A stretch of 64,000 nucleotides of DNA. Source: the human T2T-CHM13v2.0 reference genome, Homo sapiens. The stretch is taken from the NCBI RefSeq assembly GCF_009914755.1, contig NC_060933.1, one strand, 5' to 3'. Every line of letters starts with the position of its first letter. The first letter of the stretch is position 1. The notes under the pieces were generated by a model. That model searched no databases and had not been told where the DNA came from. It worked only from the letters and a program-made list of their open reading frames with translations. This document shows positions 7,890 through 62,145 of this stretch, one piece after another. The translations under genes were made by a program, and so were the position numbers.

Positions 7890-9100
7890 TCTGATTTGGT
7901 CTGCACTTTGAGTGAGAGGAAACAAAAACCTCCCGAGATAACTTTTATTCTAAGCATGCCTTCTTTTAAACTTTGTTTGAATTTACCTGGCCTCTGTAGT
8001 TTGTGAAATTCCAAGAAGAGACATTATTTTAGAGAGATACTAGGTTGCTAGAGTTCCTAGATTACTACAGTTCCTAGTTAGCTGGCAGAAGTCAATGCAT
8101 ATCCTCTTGGACTATATCTATCTTTTTCTCAGTCTTAACACCAGATTCCCAAAGATAAAGCTTCTCCAAACATGATCTCACAATCCAAAACTAAGAACAT
8201 GAGAAAACAAACAACCTTGCATCACAGAGCAGGAAAATGAACAGTAGAACTATAGTACTTTATAGCTTTAGATATAAAAACTGTCAGATTCAGAATATAA
8301 AATACTGGTTTAAAAACATTTAAAGAAATAAAATGTGAAATAGAAAACAAGTAAGGACTAAAATCCTATGAAGAAAAATCAAATAATTGAAAAAGAACTA
8401 AAAAAGAAATGAAAACTACGATCAGTGAAATTAAAACTTCAGTGGATGGGTTTAACAAGTTAGACACAACTGAAGAGAGATTTAGTAAACTGAGGGATAA
8501 AGCTGAAGAAATTATACAAAACGCAGCATAGAGAGACAGAAGTCTAAAATATAAGCCTATAAGGAGAGAGAAAAGAAGTCAATAGAGATAACAGATGAGA
8601 GACAATATTTGAGGAGATATTGCTAAATAATTTCCAAGAATAGTGAAAAACAAGAATCTTTAGATTCAGGAATCAGAGCAAATCCCACGTGGAATTAAAA
8701 AAAAAAAGTCTTCTCCAAATATAAGGCCAATAGAACACCAAAGACAAAAATAAGATCTTAAAAGCAATCAGAGAGAAACTGATTACCTCCCAAGGAACCC
8801 TATTAAACTCAAAGGAGACTTCTCTACAGCAACGATGGAAACCAGAAAGAAGACAGTGGAACAGTATCTTAAAAGCGCTGAGAGAAAAATTATTGTCAAC
8901 CTAGAATTTTAAACTTAGCTAAAATATAATTTAGTAATGAGAGCATGATAATGACATTTTCAGATAAACAAAAACTGATGTCTCCAGCACGGTCTCACAA
9001 AGGAACTTTTATACTTTCAAAAAAGAGAAAATGATCCAAAAAGGAAGAATGTCTGCAATGCAAGAAAGAATAGTGAGGGAAAAGAAAAAGTGGAATGAAT
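7890..9100 (+). mobile_element. Ancient L1M 5'/ORF1 remnant
   Basis: A-rich; gaaattaaaacttcagtggatgggtttaacaagttagacacaactgaagagaga; caacctagaatttt. Confidence 0.75.
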
Positions 9101-9261
9101 AGAGAATTAGTCATGTGGTATCACATGGCAGCTCACTCAGGAATCATAAAGCTGGCCTTGGGATAACAGAGCTAAACTTTAGAGTCCTGAGTCCTGTTAA
9201 TACTCAATCATCTGTGAAATTCAATTAAGTGAGCTTCAAGTTAACCTAAAAAGCTGTGGTG

Positions 9262-9538
<277 letters not shown>

Positions 9539-9713
9539 CAGCAGCTGTGGTGACTCTTTTCTTGAGGTCTTTGGGGGCTGCCTGTTGGTGGACAGGCTGG
9601 TGTGAAGTTGGTAGCCCTGGAGGAGCTGGGGGGAGTTGTAGGGCTAGTGTAGACAAGCTACAGAAGCCACAAGGGAGGTGCTGCTTAGAGGGGGCTCTTT
9701 ATTCTTTGTTTGG

Positions 9714-9838
9714 TTTTAATTTGAGACGGGTTCTTCCTATGTTGCCCAGCCTGGTCCCAAACCCCTGGGCTCAAGCGATCCTTCTGTCGCGGCCTCCCAG
9801 AGCGCTGGGGATACAGGTGTGAGCCACCATGCCTGGCC
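9714..9838 (-). mobile_element. FLAM_C-like monomer
   Basis: Single antisense left monomer; TSD TCTTTA(T/C)TCTT. Confidence 0.85.
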
Positions 9839-9849
9839 TCTTTACTCTT

Positions 9850-11692
9850 ATTAATTTAATGCTGGTTTTCCTAGATCTTTGTCTTTTTTTCTGGATTTTG
9901 GGAGATTTCTTTCCTTGAGTATTTTTCACTTATTTTCTATTAATTTTTTATTTTGGCAGTCATACTTTTTAACTACCACAGCTCTTATTTAAAAAATCCT
10001 TCTCCTAGTATCACATTCTTGATTTCTGGGCATATAATCTTTATGGGTCTCTCTGAGGATATGAGTTACGGTTTTTTGTAGTTTGGATTATCTCCAGTTT
10101 CCTGAATTATCTGTTTCCTTCAGGATAATCTGTTCATCTTGGTCTTTTTCTGTGATGCTCTAGGCTTTCCTCAGCAGTCTGGTAATCCTGGTTGTCCATT
10201 CATGCTTAAGAACATGGGAATGGAAGGGGTGTTGGGAGTCCTATATATGTGGATGGGGTTGTCCATTGGCTGGTTTCAGTATTGGACTAATGAGTAGAGG
10301 AATCAAGGAACCTCTCAGGGCTTTGTGTTGGGACGCTGACACACTGCATTAGTACCTTCTAGACTATGAGCAGGGGAATCGAGGAACCTCTCAGGGCTTT
10401 GTGTTGGGACACTGACTCACTGCATTAGTACCTTCTAGACTATGAGCAGGGGAATCGAGGAACCTCTCAGGGCTTTGTGTTGGGACGCTGACACACTGCA
10501 TTAGTACTTTCTAGACTGTGAGCAGGGGAATCGAGGAACCTCTCAGGGCTTTGTGTTGGGACGCTGACACACTGCATTAGTACTTTGTAGACTGTGAGCA
10601 GGGGAATCGAGGAACCTCTCAGGGCTTTGTGTTGGGACGCTGACACACTGCATTAGTACTTTGTAGACTGTGAGCAGGGGAATCGAGGAACCTCTCAGGG
10701 CTTTGTGTTGGGACGCTGACACACTGCATTAGTACTTTCTAGACTGTGAGCAGGGGAATCGAGGAACCTCTCAGGGCTTTGTGTTGGGACACTGACTCAC
10801 TGCATTAGTACTTTCTAGACTGTGAGCAGGGGAATCGAGGAACCTCTCAGGGCTTTGTGTTGGGACGCTGACACACTGCATTAGTACTTTCTAGACTGTG
10901 AGCAGGGGAATCGAGGAACCTCTCAGGGCTTTGTGTTGGGACGCTGACACACTGCATTAGTACTTTGTAGACTGTGAGCAGGGGAATCGAGGAACCTCTC
11001 AGGGCTTTGTGTTGGGACGCTGACACACTGCATTAGTACTTTCTAGACTGTGAGCAGAGGAATCGAGGAACCTCTCAGGGCTTTGTGTTGGGACACTGAC
11101 TCACTGCATTAGTACTTTCTAGACTGTGAGCAGGGGAATCGAGGAACCTCTCAGGGCTTTGTGTTGGGACACTGACTCACTGCATTAGTACTTTCTAGAC
11201 TGTGAGCAGGGGAATTGAGGAACCTCTCAGGGCTTTGTGTTGGGACACTGACACACTGCATTAATACTTTCCAAACTTTATGTTCTTCAGAGAAGACCCC
11301 TCCTTGCTGGGGGTGAGGAGGTGGAGAAGTGGGTCAGGCGTGTGCCTTGGCTGGCTGCCGCTTCATATACAGACGTATGATCCCTGGTTTTCCCCCGCCC
11401 TCTGTGTCTCACTCCCTTCCTCCACTGCACTTGCCATCTTCATGTTTGGGGCTCTTCTGGGCAGATGGGCTTGATCCTCACCTGTGAATTCCTCTGCTCT
11501 CCTTTGCCAAGCAATGCTTGCCCATCCACTTTCAGATCCCCCAGTTTGTTGAAATATCTAGTATGATGACAGCTTCTCTGTTCTCACCATTGTCGTGGTT
11601 TATACCTTTTTTACTCCTTGGCTGTAATTTAAAGGGGTCACAGGCAGGAGGGGGATGAGTGCATGTGCTCAGTCCACCATCTTGACCGGGAG
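9850..11692 (-). mobile_element. Ancient L1M 5' region interrupted by the 76-bp VNTR
   Basis: T-rich antisense L1 sequence on the left; ends in cagtccaccatcttgaccgg, the reverse complement of an L1 5' YY1-like caagatgg. Confidence 0.55.
10292..11271. repeat. 76-bp minisatellite (VNTR), about 12.9 copies
   Basis: Unit GAGCAGGGGAATCGAGGAACCTCTCAGGGCTTTGTGTTGGGACGCTGACACACTGCATTAGTACTTTCTAGACTGT starts at 10292, 10368, 10444 ... 11204 with an exact period of 76. Confidence 0.98.
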
Positions 11693-12010
11693 CCCCAGAG
11701 GCATCATTTCAATTCCTGTGATATTATGGATTCCTACGGGTAGGAAAAACACAGCCCATTCAACCAAATATACTTTAACCCCTAGAGATTTAGCTTTAAC
11801 TTGTTTAGAATTGTTTAAAAGTCCCTTGTATTTTGCAGTTTTTTCATTTTCTCCTTGAAAGTAAAAACATTTGTGGCAAATAGGGAAGAAAAACTTTCCA
11901 GTTAATCGAGAATTAGGATAAGTGAGATTTAAATATTATCAGATACTGATAAGAACTATGGCTTTTAAAGAATGTCGTCTTAGAATCAGTTTCTAATTAC
12001 TTGTGTGCAG

Positions 12011-12063
12011 AAGAGTCCTGCAGCTGTGAGGTGATCACAGTCTTTGGCCTAAGCCGCTGCCAG
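12011..12063 (+). other. Candidate 53-nt non-coding exon
   Basis: ctaat branch-like site, ttgtgtgcag acceptor, consensus donor CAG|GTGAGT, in unique sequence. Confidence 0.35.
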
Positions 12064-12874
12064 GTGAGTGAAAGCCAATCTGGAGTCACAGAGTGGCAGC
12101 GACTGCACCGGAGATGTGTGTGCCATTTGTTAAGATGAGTCAAATGGTAGTTAGGGCAACGAAGATCCACAGAGGGAGAAAGAAAGATACTGGAAAAGCA
12201 GCAGCACAGTTTAATAACAGTCATCGTTCATGATGGCAAGGTTGTTTACTATAAAAATTCCATCCTTCTTGCCTCTGTGCTGCCCCCCACCATTTTTTTA
12301 TTTGACATTAGGGCTTGCTGATTTATGGCATAACGCAGTACATTTCACCTCTGAAACAAAGTCTGTAAAATCTTGAGATATATTAAAGTCTTTATTCCCC
12401 AACGCTAAAGACCTCATACTGTTTAGTCCTCTATACATTTAGCCCTTTATGCTTGGGGAGGGGGAGGTTATAAATTTCTAGAGGGAACTGGATTGGCAAT
12501 GGTATGTTTGATGGTGAAATGCCTTGACTAAACAAACAAGGCTGCTCCAGAAACGCACACACAGCAAACCTATATGCCATATAAGTAACGTGTTATGTGG
12601 GGAGTTACTTTAGGTTTAAAACAAATGTCATACTCTTGATGCTTTTAGGTAGCTATTATCTTGGTAAGGATAAGACAGAAATATGGTGAAGTTGCATCTG
12701 ATTTTGAGGGATACTGCGGGCAAACCTGACAGCTAGCTTGGTTACTAGAGGTTTAATTAGTTACAGCTGCTCTGCCATTGTATTAATAGAGCCACTCTGC
12801 TTTCAGGCACCATGGATGCCTTTTATAATTTGGATGTTCTTAAAAAGAGCACTGTGTGAAAGTGAGCAGCCCTG

Positions 12875-13635
<761 letters not shown>

Positions 13636-14797
13636 GTAAGTCCAAGAAAGTAGATTGGATTCTGAGTGGGCAGTGAAGGTGGAAATGTGGTCCTAAAGAG
13701 AACGGGCAAATTAAGAAAAGATTGTTTTAAGACAGTCAAATTGTTTTGCCTGTTGAAGAAGGTGATCAGACCCTAATGAAACTGAAAATGAGGAGAGTGT
13801 TCCCATCTCCTGCCTGGTCCTAGCGACTCTGCAAATGGGTGCCTGATTGGTCTGTTGGCTCTGAAGCCAGCCTTTGCTGGATATATTCAGCCTGTTTTGA
13901 AGTTGTGCAGAGAACCTCACTTGCGTCATTCTGAAGACGCAGTGAGTCAACGCAGTCCCAAGAGAGCAGTAATGGCCCCAAACAGAAACTTGGAATGAAA
14001 AATAGCCATGGATTTAAAGACATAGCACATTCTTCCTATGACTTCATTTGGTAATGGTAAGATTAATTCACAGAAAACCCTTCTTGAGTGGCGTACCTTA
14101 AACACATGTAGAATGATTTTTTTCTTTGCTTTTCCCATTTAGCCTTTTGAAACAGGATACACAGTAGGGTGATTGGTTTGGGAGGGCACTGGTACAGTAA
14201 TTCTCCACCTCTCACTTGCCCGTGTGGGTGCCCCATCCCCACCCTCAGGCACACACGCACTCTTAGCTGCTTTTGGACTCCTCCCGCAATGTCACAATAG
14301 TTTTCTTTGAACATTCTTGACCCTCAGTCATGTTGACATGCGTTTGGATTTTCAGTGGAGAAGAATTGCCAGAGAAGAATCTTCCTCTGATTTTAACCAT
14401 TGACCATATTTATATATGCAGTTTCAGCTTGACTTTTAAATTGATAATCTTTTAATAGAATTCCAGATAACATCTTACTGTAACAAACACCAAGGGGATT
14501 ATCCAAATTCCTATTTGAAAATATGTCTTTTATATTACCAGATTTGCCAGCTGCATTATTATCTATTAGTGTGTACTAAAAGTATATTATTTTGGCTTAT
14601 TTTGAGATTAGATAATTCCCAGTGGAATTCTCCCCTTAACCATCTAAATCTGTATTTTTTTTTTCCCCATTTAGTTTCCTAAACAGTGAGGCTTCTGGGC
14701 AGGAAATGAGAGAAGAGGAGGAGGTAATATAGAATAATGCAGTGGCTTTCAAGTATTGTGACCCGTATGAGGAATACATATTCAGTTATGACTTAGC

Positions 14798-14868
14798 ATT
14801 CACATATGCACACATACATGTACGTATATATATCACATTCACACATATGCATATATGTACATATACAG
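14798..14868. repeat. Low-complexity alternating purine-pyrimidine (CATA/TA/CA) tract
   Basis: cacatatgcacacatacatgtacgtatatatatcacattcacacatatgcatatatgtacatatac. Confidence 0.7.
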
Positions 14869-14888
14869 CTGAAGAAGGTCTGGATTAG

Positions 14889-15272
<384 letters not shown>

Positions 15273-15334
15273 TGACTCATTAGTAGTGGATCTCATGACT
15301 AAGAATGGATCCTGACCCAAGTTTGAAGAGACTG

Positions 15335-15580
15335 GTAGGGGTAAATTTAGAGCCTGGGGCTCCAAAGTTTGTCTACCCAGTTTTAAATCCTGGCTTTCCC
15401 CTTAACTTGGGTGGGATCACACCATTAACCGTGTTACCCCTCTGAAGCTTTGGCTCCCACACCTGTGAGATGTGAATGTTGATAACACACACCCACCTCA
15501 TAGGATTAATGAGAACATGCCAAGATATAATGCGCTGAAGGTCTTAGCATGCCTGCGCAGAGCCCCAGCATCTGTTAGCT
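15335..15580 (+). mobile_element. MIR
   Basis: ttttaaatcctggcttt...ctgtgagatg...cctcataggattaatgaga. Confidence 0.65.
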
Positions 15581-15714
15581 GCTGCTGCTGCCGCTGTGGT
15601 GGTGACTGTCCTTGCTAAGATGCTGCAGCTGGATTGGCTTCGTGGGAAGTTGTGGAATTCTGTTCCCTGAGGATGTTGGGAAGGACAGATTGTACTTACC
15701 AAGAGCATTTATTG

Positions 15715-16005
15715 TTGTTTTTATTTTCTTAAACATTTCCAATGAAAATCATCAAACCTATAAAGTTGAAAGAACAATGCACCTAGATTCATCAACTCTT
15801 AACACTTGCTATCTCTCTTACATAGAAACATTTCCCTTTTACCAGTCCACTTGGAAATTGGCTATATACTCACGATAGCCAAGAACAAGAACACTCTCTT
15901 ACACCATCACATCATTGCCACACTTAAGGAAATCCACACTGATCCAGGAACATTATTTGATATACAGTCCATATTCAGAATCCTCCAGGTATCAGTAATA
16001 TTTTA
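15715..16005 (-). mobile_element. L1MC-like 3' fragment
   Basis: aaagttgaaagaa...cacctagattc...tacagtccatattcagaat. Confidence 0.6.
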
Positions 16006-21975: not shown

Positions 21976-22909
21976 AAAATACAAACCTTGGGTTCTCTTA
22001 GAGTGGAGAAAGGGATCAGTGATCCAAGACCGTTTCTCATAAAGCTAATACCTCAGAGAGGCTACACCATCAGAGAGAAAATGTACGGGGGAGAAGCACA
22101 TTACACAGTATCAATCAGAAAGGAATATTTCTGTCTGAGCTTTCACTTTGAGTGGAGGGCAAAGAAAAAAAATCACATGAGAACTTGTGGCTGCTGACCA
22201 GCTGCTCCCACATGGGTGTAGAAACTGGTTTTATCCTATCTGTGTGACCTCCAATAGCTGCAAGTTGGAAATCTTGATTTAGAGTGGACCTAGGTTTTTA
22301 CCATCCCTGGGTGCTTGACAAAAGCAAGTTTAAGTCTTCCCTAACTCAGAGTTTCCATAGATCATTGCAGCCAATATGAACACACCAAAAAAGGACATAC
22401 ACACACACACACACACACACCCTGAAACAAGATATCATGCGCAAGAGTCAGTAGAAACAATAGTTGTTCCTGACAATTTCAGATATTGGAAATATTGAAT
22501 ATAGACTATAAGTTAATTTACTACCTTTGGGGAAGCAAAAGAAGGAATTGAAAATATGAGGAAAGAGAGAGATACATCAAAAACAACCAGGCAGTTTTAT
22601 TTTTAAAAATCAAATATAATGTTCAGAAGTAAAAAGCATAATCATTGAGATAAAAAATTTATGGATTGGTTAAATGTTAGAATAGAAACAGCAGAAACCA
22701 GAATTAGTGAACTAGAAGATAAGTCTGAAGAAATAACACAGACTGAAGCTAATAGAAACAAAGGGATGTAAACCACGAGAGGCTCAGAGATATAGTGAGA
22801 AGGTCCAACTTATGTCTAATTGGAGTTCCAGAAGAAGATACTACAGGGAATGGCAAAGAGAGAATATTGAAACAGATAATGAGTGAGAATCTTCACAATT
22901 GATGAACAA

Positions 22910-34399: not shown

Positions 34400-36309
<1,910 letters not shown>

Positions 36310-43403: not shown

Positions 43404-44082
43404 TCAGAATAAACATTGCACAAGTAAAGATTTGTGATTTTGAAGACTTAACCATAGAAACTATCCAAAATGAAGCAGAAAAAAAAAAGAAACCCTGAAA
43501 AAAATACATGAACACAACATCAGTAAAGTGAGGGACAACATCAGGTAGCCAAATGTGTGTGGAATTGGAGTCCCTGAAGGAAGGGAGGGTATGAGGGACC
43601 AAAAAATATATATAGAGAGAGAAAAAAAAATGGCTGAAAAATTTCCAAGTGTAATGAAAGCAGTAAACACACAGATCCAAGAATTTCAAGGAACTCCAAG
43701 CACAGGAAACATGAAGAAAAACTATATACTAAGGCACATCTTAAGCAAATTGCTTAAAACCATGGTTTAAAATGGCCAAAGAAAAAGATACATTATATAC
43801 TTAAGATCAGGGTGACACCAGATTTCTCATTGGAAACAATGTAAGCCAGGTTAACAGTGGAACAATACATTTAAAGCAAAGAAAGAAAACAGTTGTCTAC
43901 CTAGAATTCTTTTCTCAGTGAAAATACCTTTCAAAAATGAAGGCAAAATAAGGTCTCTTTCAGACTTTAAAAAAAAAAAGGAAGAATTTATTACCAGTAG
44001 ATATGCAGTACAAGAAATATCAAAGGATGTAATTAAAGCAGAAAGAGAATGATAACTGGTAGAAAACTGGAGCCACCAGGAG

Positions 44083-59982: not shown

Positions 59983-60474
59983 TCAGGAGCCTGACCCCCA
60001 GCATGGGTCCGGGTAGGCCATTGGCCGAAAATAGTGGAGTGGGCAAAGAGCAGATTTTTTAAAAGTCTGCATACTGAATAGTAAGATTCCCAGCCCTCTT
60101 CTAATACCTGCTAGCCAGGGGCCTAATAAGGAAGAGATTGAAATATTCTTTTCTAGGGGGAAAAAGTTGAATGACCCTAGAGAAAAGCCCTACAGATACC
60201 AACATTTAGGGATTCTCTTGAAAAAGCGAGTTTACCATCTCCTTTCACTGAAGCTTACCAGTGGCTGTGCCCCTTCCACGCATACAAAACTAACAGTCAT
60301 CTTTTAGTTGCTCATTCATAGAGAGTGAGTGGCCTGCCAAATCTCTCTAGGCATTAGAGGAAGGTCTCTAACCTGATATTAATAGATAAAGGGTAAAACA
60401 AATAGCAGAAAACAGGAACTTGGTGGAAATAAAGACAATGCAGTCAACAGAGGAAGAGTTTAAAAGAACTATTC

Positions 60475-61606: not shown

Positions 61607-62145
61607 TCAATCCCAGGGCTTTAATATCCTTTTTGTAGGAATTCCAGAAAGAAAACAAAAAAATAATGATAATAACGAAGAAACAAATGGAGGAGAAGTT
61701 AGGAGACGTTAAATGTAAGGAAAAATTTCAGAGTTTAGTGAAGTGAGTATTTTCCAAAACAGAATTATATAAATCTCTGGATTTATGAGTGCCCAGAATA
61801 ATATATGAAAGGCCATATCATTGTGAAAGTTCAGAACACCAAGAATATTAGAAGATCCTAAAAGTTTCCAAAGAGAAAAAAAGCAAGTCATTTTAAGGGG
61901 TCAGGAACCAGAATGGGATTGCATCTCTAAACAATACTTACTGGAAACTAGATAGTAGCAGATAAATAAATGCCTTCAAAGTTCATTTGGGAAAATTATT
62001 TTCAACCTAGAATTCTATACCCAGACAAACTGTCAAGATAGAAGAAAGGTATTTTTTTAGACATGCACCCTCCCTCCCCACCTCTGTGAAGCTACTGGAT
62101 GATGAATTCCAGCAAAATGAAGAAGTCAGTCAATAAGTAGAACTG

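What the first reader, a model, noticed from the sequence alone, without database searches (positions are those of the whole stretch)
10292..11271. 76-bp VNTR in which an AP-1 site is present in only some units
Seen: 13 highly similar units with two linked internal variants, GACGCTGACACAC and GACACTGACTCAC. The second creates a perfect AP-1 element (TGACTCA) and removes a CpG, in units 2, 7, 11 and 12 (starts 10368, 10748, 11052, 11128). Every unit has an ETS-type GGAA core (GAGGAAC in units 2-13), and most have a GGGGAATC kB-like half site. Other variants (CCTTCT/CTTTCT/CTTTGT, TATGAG/TGTGAG) give each allele an internal code. The array grew out of an ancient L1 5' region and lies about 0.7 kb from unique sequence with further AP-1 sites. 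Inference: a tunable enhancer whose output may depend on unit composition as well as copy number.
Basis: partly seen in the sequence, partly recalled or inferred. Interest (0 to 1): 0.7.

Follow-up and report, generated by a model that had tools for sequence, protein, structure and literature searches.

The report
Known ABL1 minisatellite with AP-1 units
This is an already published variable repeat in the first intron of the human ABL1 gene; 4 of its 13 copies carry a binding motif for the AP-1 transcription factor, but the repeat is likely a near-neutral leftover of an old jumping gene, because a published reporter test found no boost of gene activity and no difference between alleles.

Summary
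The array is real (10291-11271, 76 bp x 12.9) and perfect TGACTCA sites occur only in units 2, 7, 11 and 12. It is the published ABL1-MS1 (PMC8097952): the paper's primers bracket it. Published alleles have 13-16 units; in reporters they lowered ABL1-promoter activity in 293T, did nothing in UM-UC3, and did not differ by length. The array sits inside the 5' end of an old antisense L1. The ETS and kB matches are weak cores of chance grade. Not stated in the paper: all four published alleles keep nine non-AP-1 units and differ only in AP-1-type units (4, 5, 6, 7; three of these are degraded reads), so composition and length are collinear, not independent. The 'cancer-only' 14-unit length equals the paper's own reference-predicted product (1194 = 1118 + 76 bp). 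Best reading: a near-neutral minisatellite in which a chance AP-1 variant spread by unit duplication (0.6); a weak AP-1-dose element remains possible (about 0.2). ChIP, ATAC and ape data could not be checked.

The parts
10291..11271 (.). 76-bp minisatellite, 12.9 units = ABL1-MS1 (13-unit allele), in ABL1 intron 1
   Evidence: TRF; unit table; primers of PMC8097952 map once each at 10217 and 11315-11334, product 1118 bp
10413..10419 (+). AP-1 motif TGACTCA, unit 2 (mosaic unit: AP-1 variant joined to unit-1-type tail)
   Evidence: four-gamete test
10793..10799 (+). AP-1 motif, unit 7; the place where published longer alleles carry 2 or 3 AP-1 units in a row
   Evidence: PMC8097952 Table 4, bookkeeping
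11097..11103 (+). AP-1 motif, unit 11
11173..11179 (+). AP-1 motif, unit 12
11204..11271 (.). terminal diverged unit 13: both CpGs lost, no AP-1 (intermediate state of the linked variants)
9860..10290 (-). left part of an old L1 5' region (towards ORF1), antisense to ABL1
   Evidence: 6 other genomic copies from a seed, 0 in control; nhmmer E 9e-20 with a profile of 9 other copies; ORF1p follows in the expected orientation in 3 of 9 copies
11272..11715 (-). right part of the same L1 5' region, up to about its 5' end
   Evidence: copy L027, found with a seed at this end, also matches the left flank at E 8e-7; L021 matches 11388-11547, 0 of 100 shuffles as high; profile tiling z 1.6 and 2.7
12136..12142 (-). 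nearest perfect AP-1 motif outside the array

Best explanation
This is the published, polymorphic minisatellite ABL1-MS1, lying inside the 5' end of an old antisense L1; one base change made an AP-1 motif in one unit type, which likely spread by unit duplication and conversion, and the array likely has little or no allele-specific effect on ABL1. Shown: identity, unit types, L1 setting of both flanks, mosaic units, reporter results in print. Inferred: that the unit is a duplicated piece of the L1 itself, the order of mutations (CpG transition first, AP-1 change on that background, since unit 13 holds the intermediate), slippage at runs of identical units as the source of length alleles, and near-neutrality in chromatin.
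For: Primers and unit table identify it. Published reporters: lower activity in 293T, no effect in UM-UC3, no significant difference among 13-16 units, although these alleles differ in AP-1-type units (4 to 7). Motifs arise easily: 214 of 829 76-bp stretches of the window hold a site one change from AP-1, and 19 of 228 single changes to the unit create one of 25 recalled motif cores. Four-gamete pairs show exchange between units. No RefSeq functional element overlaps it (hub annotation). No row at the estimated GRCh38 place in the GTEx lead-eVNTR table of PMC10234305, whose only ABL1 row is a different repeat. Not among the 3 chr9 intervals of the MORC3-restricted motif-cluster table. CpG o/e 0.32, like the window (0.28), so no CpG island.
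Against: All length change in the four published alleles falls in AP-1-type units (chance about 0.04-0.16 depending on how many events are counted). The 293T-versus-UM-UC3 contrast fits AP-1 offsetting repression (inference; AP-1 levels of the two lines recalled, not checked). 3 of 6 outside AP-1 sites lie within 4 kb to the right (p 0.004 one side, 0.03 either side, post hoc). The reporter used a strong promoter on a plasmid without stimulation. The eQTL negatives are weak: lead-only tables, cut files, and it is unknown whether the locus was tested. The unit's own match to the L1 profile is weak (z 0.5-2.3).
Confidence: 0.6

Rival explanations
1. A weak, signal-dependent AP-1 element: the array is repressive or inert by default and becomes accessible when MAPK/AP-1 is high; because added units are AP-1 units, length acts as AP-1 dose (8, 10 or 12 sites per diploid for the common genotypes).
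For: Four perfect sites in 770 bp against 6 in the other 63 kb; AP-1 units = n - 9 in published alleles; the C and G flanks resemble LTR10A sites shown to be needed for reporter activity (PMC466953 passages); repression seen in 293T but not in a cancer line.
Against: No gain over promoter alone and no allele difference in either line; only 4-7 sites at 76-bp or wider spacing, against up to 33 in LTR10 VNTRs and 45 PU.1 sites at the IFNB1 element; about 57-64 kb from both ABL1 promoters (hub annotation); each published allele rests on one sequenced clone and 3 AP-1 calls are degraded reads.
Confidence: 0.22
2. A length-independent silencer or insulating element, as the published reporter suggests, lost in cancer cells.
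For: All four alleles reduced luciferase in 293T.
Against: No length-matched control insert is described in the methods read; plasmid only; one non-cancer line; no bound repressor identified.
Confidence: 0.1
3. One reading: a tunable ETS/kB/AP-1 composite enhancer whose output depends on unit composition independently of copy number.
For: Same-length alleles can differ inside: the window's third unit keeps GGAA where the published 13-, 14- and 15-unit alleles list a GGGA variant. VNTR motif effects independent of length exist elsewhere (90 loci, PMC10234305 passages).
Against: 0 full kB sites, ETS cores with poor 3' bases; AP-1 count is collinear with length in 5 of 5 known allele sequences (window plus four published); no enhancer activity in print.
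Confidence: 0.08

Closest known systems
ABL1-MS1 (Kim et al. 2021, PMC8097952)
   Same: Same locus: primers, 76-bp unit, unit types and order; the window is a 13-unit allele differing from the published one at one base of unit 3.
   Different: The paper lists other predicted factors and does not name AP-1 in the text parts read (parts 1-4 of 5), does not note that length change is AP-1 units, does not place it in L1.
LTR10A/F internal VNTR AP-1 enhancers (PMC466953, passages)
   Same: Tandem repeat inside a transposable element whose copy number changes AP-1 motif number.
   Different: There the 28-30-bp unit carries the motif, up to 33 copies, with FOSL1/JUND ChIP, H3K27ac and motif-dependent reporter activity; here 4 of 13 units, an L1 host, and no activation in print.
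MORC3-restricted tandem-repeat motif clusters, IFNB1 MRE (PMC13373173, passages and one supplement table)
   Same: Intronic minisatellite with repeated ETS- or AP-1-like motifs, repressed by default.
   Different: Those have dense clusters (45 PU.1 sites); this locus is not among the 3 chr9 intervals listed.
eMotif VNTRs such as CACNA1C and MAD1L1 (PMC10234305, PMC11701250, passages)
   Same: Unit variants create or destroy factor motifs.
   Different: Those have expression associations; none was found for this locus in the tables that could be searched.

Membership tests
ABL1-MS1 minisatellite | published primers flank the array uniquely | tested here: met
   each maps once in the window, product 1118 bp
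ABL1-MS1 minisatellite | 76-bp unit and unit types of Table 4 | tested here: met
   window order 1-2-5-4-4-5-6-5-4-7-6-6-partial against published 1-2-3-4-4-5-6-5-4-7-6-6-partial, compared by eye
VNTR | copy number varies among people and is inherited | tested here: met
   from print: 13 units 22%, 15 units 78% of 414 control alleles; 14 and 16 rare; Mendelian in six families
L1-derived sequence | flanks homologous to a dispersed family that runs into L1 ORF1 | tested here: met
   ORF1p hits in 3 of 9 copies, E 4e-7 to 2.5e-5, right orientation; no ORF1p hit on this copy itself
L1-derived sequence | the unit itself aligns in register with the family | tested here: inconclusive
   2 of 5 unit versions land near the expected profile place (z 1.7, 2.3), 3 land elsewhere; flanks tile around a gap of about one unit
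AP-1 VNTR enhancer (LTR10 type) | AP-1 motif carried by repeat units and changing with copy number | tested here: met
   4 of 13 units; 4, 5, 6, 7 AP-1-type units in the 13-16-unit alleles, 3 of them degraded reads
AP-1 VNTR enhancer (LTR10 type) | raises reporter activity, more with more motifs | tested here: not met
   from print: decrease in 293T, none in UM-UC3, no length effect; figure values not seen; no stimulation or motif mutants tried
AP-1 VNTR enhancer (LTR10 type) | FOS/JUN binding, H3K27ac, accessibility | not testable with these tools
   no chromatin data on hand; no RefSeq functional element overlaps (hub annotation)
eVNTR / eMotif | association with nearby expression | tested here: inconclusive
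   0 rows at the estimated GRCh38 place in PMC10234305 (one file not searched, one cut), PMC11701250 (full lists not in the supplements) and PMC8275641 (files cut)
MORC3-restricted motif-cluster repeat | listed among restricted repeats in BLaER1 monocytes | tested here: not met
   28 chr9 rows cover 3 other intervals
NF-kB / ETS composite element | full kB site and ETS site with consensus flanks | tested here: not met
   0 matches to two recalled kB patterns; GGAA is followed by CC, TC or TT in all 26 cases

The most novel reading that the evidence does not exclude
ABL1-MS1 is an AP-1 dosage switch: a fixed scaffold of nine inert units in which only the AP-1 unit expands, so that common 13- and 15-unit alleles give 4 versus 6 sites and tune MAPK-induced ABL1 (or a neighbouring lncRNA) in AP-1-high cells, including from Philadelphia chromosomes that keep this part of intron 1.
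Probability: 0.12. Interest if true: 0.55.

Novelty: already known. Interest (0 to 1): 0.22.

Why it matters
As it stands it is an ordinary, published minisatellite. Two side results are useful. First, in the published alleles length equals AP-1 dose, which gives a sharp and cheap test of function that the original study did not frame. Second, the bladder-cancer link rests on 6 rare alleles (Fisher p 0.013 reproduced; 0.063 if one control carried one), and the 14-unit 'cancer-only' length is what the paper itself predicted from the reference genome, so it is probably an ordinary allele outside that cohort. If the AP-1-dose reading held, it would add a common-allele, motif-selective VNTR at a major oncogene to a class already known from LTR10 and eMotif studies.

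Tried and rejected
Other genomic copies of the array: a genome search with 10000-11700 found only itself (the tool warns this does not show rarity). Coding role: only short stop-to-stop frames across the array; Pfam scan of 7 short flank frames gave nothing significant (best E 0.04, below cut-offs). Structured RNA: 0 Rfam matches in 8000-16000. Hairpin-driven instability: two units fold no better than shuffles (z +0.82, 160 of 200 as stable). CpG island or methyl-AP-1 site: o/e 0.32, 0 CGAGTCA/TGACTCG. Seeds near the array edges gave no useful homologues (only self; 1 other match with no extension); two further seed searches gave 0. First profile (5 copies, Alu not removed) was swamped by Alu hits; L018 was left out of later profiles because an Alu and a simple repeat interrupt it, and L015, L025, L028 were not used. 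Seven of the 9 profile copies were picked by a seed in 10160-10189, so the score of that segment (z 15.6) is partly by construction; the independent evidence is 10216-10291 (z 4.2), 11348-11423 (z 2.7) and copy L027. Literature searches for an AP-1 or enhancer role at this place: 1 paper, the original; 0 papers; nothing relevant by title or abstract start. A search for AP-1 levels in 293T gave nothing usable. Earlier scan findings were not available.

Full report
Observation. Tandem Repeats Finder reports one long minisatellite in the window, 10291-11271, period 76, 12.9 copies, 97% matches, no indels. Cutting it into units confirms perfect TGACTCA at 10413, 10793, 11097 and 11173, in units 2, 7, 11 and 12. 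The two linked positions read G/A in 8 units, A/T in 4 and A/A in unit 13, so the linkage holds in 12 of 13 units and the last unit is an intermediate. Only the A>T change creates the AP-1 site; the CpG loss lies just upstream. The ETS and kB matches are cores only: all 26 GGAA are followed by CC, TC or TT, there are 0 matches to two recalled full kB patterns, and GGAA/TTCC appears 0.67 times per 76 bp elsewhere in the window. The nearest outside AP-1 site is 0.86 kb away at 12136.

Identity. The array is ABL1-MS1 of Kim et al. 2021 (PMC8097952; I read parts 1-4 of 5 of the text and both supplements as text, not the figures). Both primers map once and give 1118 bp. The window's unit order matches the published 13-unit allele except for one base in unit 3 (by eye). 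The paper found 13 units in 92 and 15 units in 322 of 414 control alleles, 14 and 16 units in 3 each of 394 patient alleles, and Mendelian transmission. Its table of unit types already contains the AP-1-bearing units, but its list of predicted factors does not name AP-1. A search for the name finds only this paper; searches joining ABL1 with enhancer, AP-1 or VNTR terms found nothing further on this locus.

What the published alleles show when re-read. Labelling each published unit by the motif, the 13-, 14-, 15- and 16-unit alleles each keep nine non-AP-1 units and carry 4, 5, 6 and 7 AP-1-type units; exact motifs number 4, 5, 5, 5, and the other three (one in the 15-, two in the 16-unit allele) are heavily substituted units at the far end of the reads that I class as AP-1 type by position and remaining letters. 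The window fits the rule (4 + 9). So length and AP-1 dose are collinear in 5 of 5 known sequences. Chance is not excluded (0.04-0.16 by the number of events assumed), each allele is one clone, and slippage inside runs of identical units would give the same picture without selection (inference). The paper's expected product from the reference, 1194 bp, is exactly 1118 + 76, so the reference allele had 14 units, the length called rare and cancer-only; the sizes in its Table 2 are each 5 bp short of the primer-defined sizes. The association (p 0.013, reproduced) falls to 0.063 with one control carrier.

Origin. A 28-base seed from the left flank finds 6 other copies on six contigs and 0 with the control pattern. 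A profile of 9 other copies matches the left flank up to 10282 at E 9e-20. Copy L027, found with a seed 390 bases right of the array, also matches the left flank (E 8e-7), and L021 matches 11388-11547 with 0 of 100 shuffles as high, so both flanks belong to one element. In 3 of 9 copies an L1 ORF1 protein from the same genome aligns just downstream in the expected orientation (E 4e-7 to 2.5e-5), which makes the family an L1 5' region, here antisense to ABL1 and spanning about 9860-11715. Segments tile along the profile in order (36-112, 113-187, then 266-357, 349-423), leaving a gap of about one unit; the unit itself scores weakly (z 0.5-2.3; 2 of 5 versions land near the gap). Old L1M and HAL1 elements are reported as enriched in the ABL1 breakpoint region (PMC10379433, passages). 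Four-gamete pairs between the AP-1 sites and the tail variants show exchange between units; both end units have lost a CpG by transition.

Function. The one experiment in print put the four alleles behind luciferase driven by 2 kb of ABL1 promoter: activity fell in 293T, was unchanged in UM-UC3, and did not differ by length. That is not enhancer behaviour, though it used plasmids, a strong promoter, no stimulation and no described length-matched control. No RefSeq functional element overlaps the array (hub annotation). In the GTEx lead-eVNTR table of PMC10234305 the only ABL1 row is a CT-rich repeat near exon 1a, and no row falls at the estimated GRCh38 place; one file was not searched, one was cut, and I could not see whether the locus was tested. 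The negatives in PMC11701250 and PMC8275641 are uninformative (lists not supplied or cut). The Garg preprint does not mention ABL1 in its main text; its tables were closed. The locus is not among the 3 chr9 intervals of the MORC3-restricted motif-cluster table. Motifs of this kind come cheaply: 214 of 829 unit-sized stretches of the window are one change from AP-1, and 19 of 228 single changes to the unit create one of 25 recalled motif cores, 1 of them AP-1. Against neutrality: the collinearity above, the cell-line contrast, and 3 of 6 outside AP-1 sites within 4 kb on the right (p 0.004-0.03, post hoc).

How it most likely works. A 76-bp piece within an old antisense L1 5' region was duplicated in tandem; point changes arose in single units and were spread by slippage and conversion; one made TGACTCA. 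The array then likely behaves as a near-neutral, low-diversity marker (0.6).

Comparison. It works, if at all, like the LTR10A/F VNTRs, where AP-1 motif number tracks FOSL1 binding and H3K27ac (PMC466953, passages), or the motif-cluster repeats held down by MORC3 (PMC13373173, passages and supplement search), or eMotif VNTRs (PMC10234305, PMC11701250, passages). It is not filed as a member: reporter activation was tested in print and not seen, and binding could not be tested. The locus is known, the class of mechanism is known, and only the AP-1 bookkeeping and the L1 setting are additions.

Verdict. Observation confirmed; interpretation partly supported; already known; interest 0.22. Most novel reading not excluded: an AP-1 dosage switch at ABL1 (probability 0.12, interest 0.55 if true).

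Noticed in passing
window 8406-8977 (+): Decayed L1 ORF1 fragment on the + strand (tblastn E 1e-4), facing the antisense L1 5' piece that hosts the array, with two Alus between them.
   Followed up: partly
window 60055-60445 (-), 61646-62029: A second copy of the same old L1 5' family (nhmmer E 1.8e-15), with ORF1-like DNA further right (blastn to the 8.5-8.9 kb fragment); it lies inside the annotated lncRNA LOC124902287 exon.
   Followed up: partly
window 43450-44046 (+), 22756-22899 (+), 34678-34830 (-): Further decayed L1 ORF1 fragments (E 4e-14 to 6e-4).
   Followed up: no
window 12136-15279: 3 of the 6 perfect AP-1 sites outside the array lie in this largely non-repeat stretch next to the 3' exon of LOC124902288; it could be a better enhancer candidate than the array (post hoc p 0.004-0.03).
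   Followed up: partly
window 10217-11334: The published 'expected' PCR size (1194 bp) equals this product plus one unit, so the reference allele used had the 14 units that the paper calls rare and cancer-only; tabulated sizes are 5 bp short.
   Followed up: yes
L047:2032-2155: CT-rich repeat just behind the CpG-rich ABL1 exon 1a region matches the place of the only ABL1 eVNTR in PMC10234305 (heart atrial appendage, p 8e-6).
   Followed up: partly
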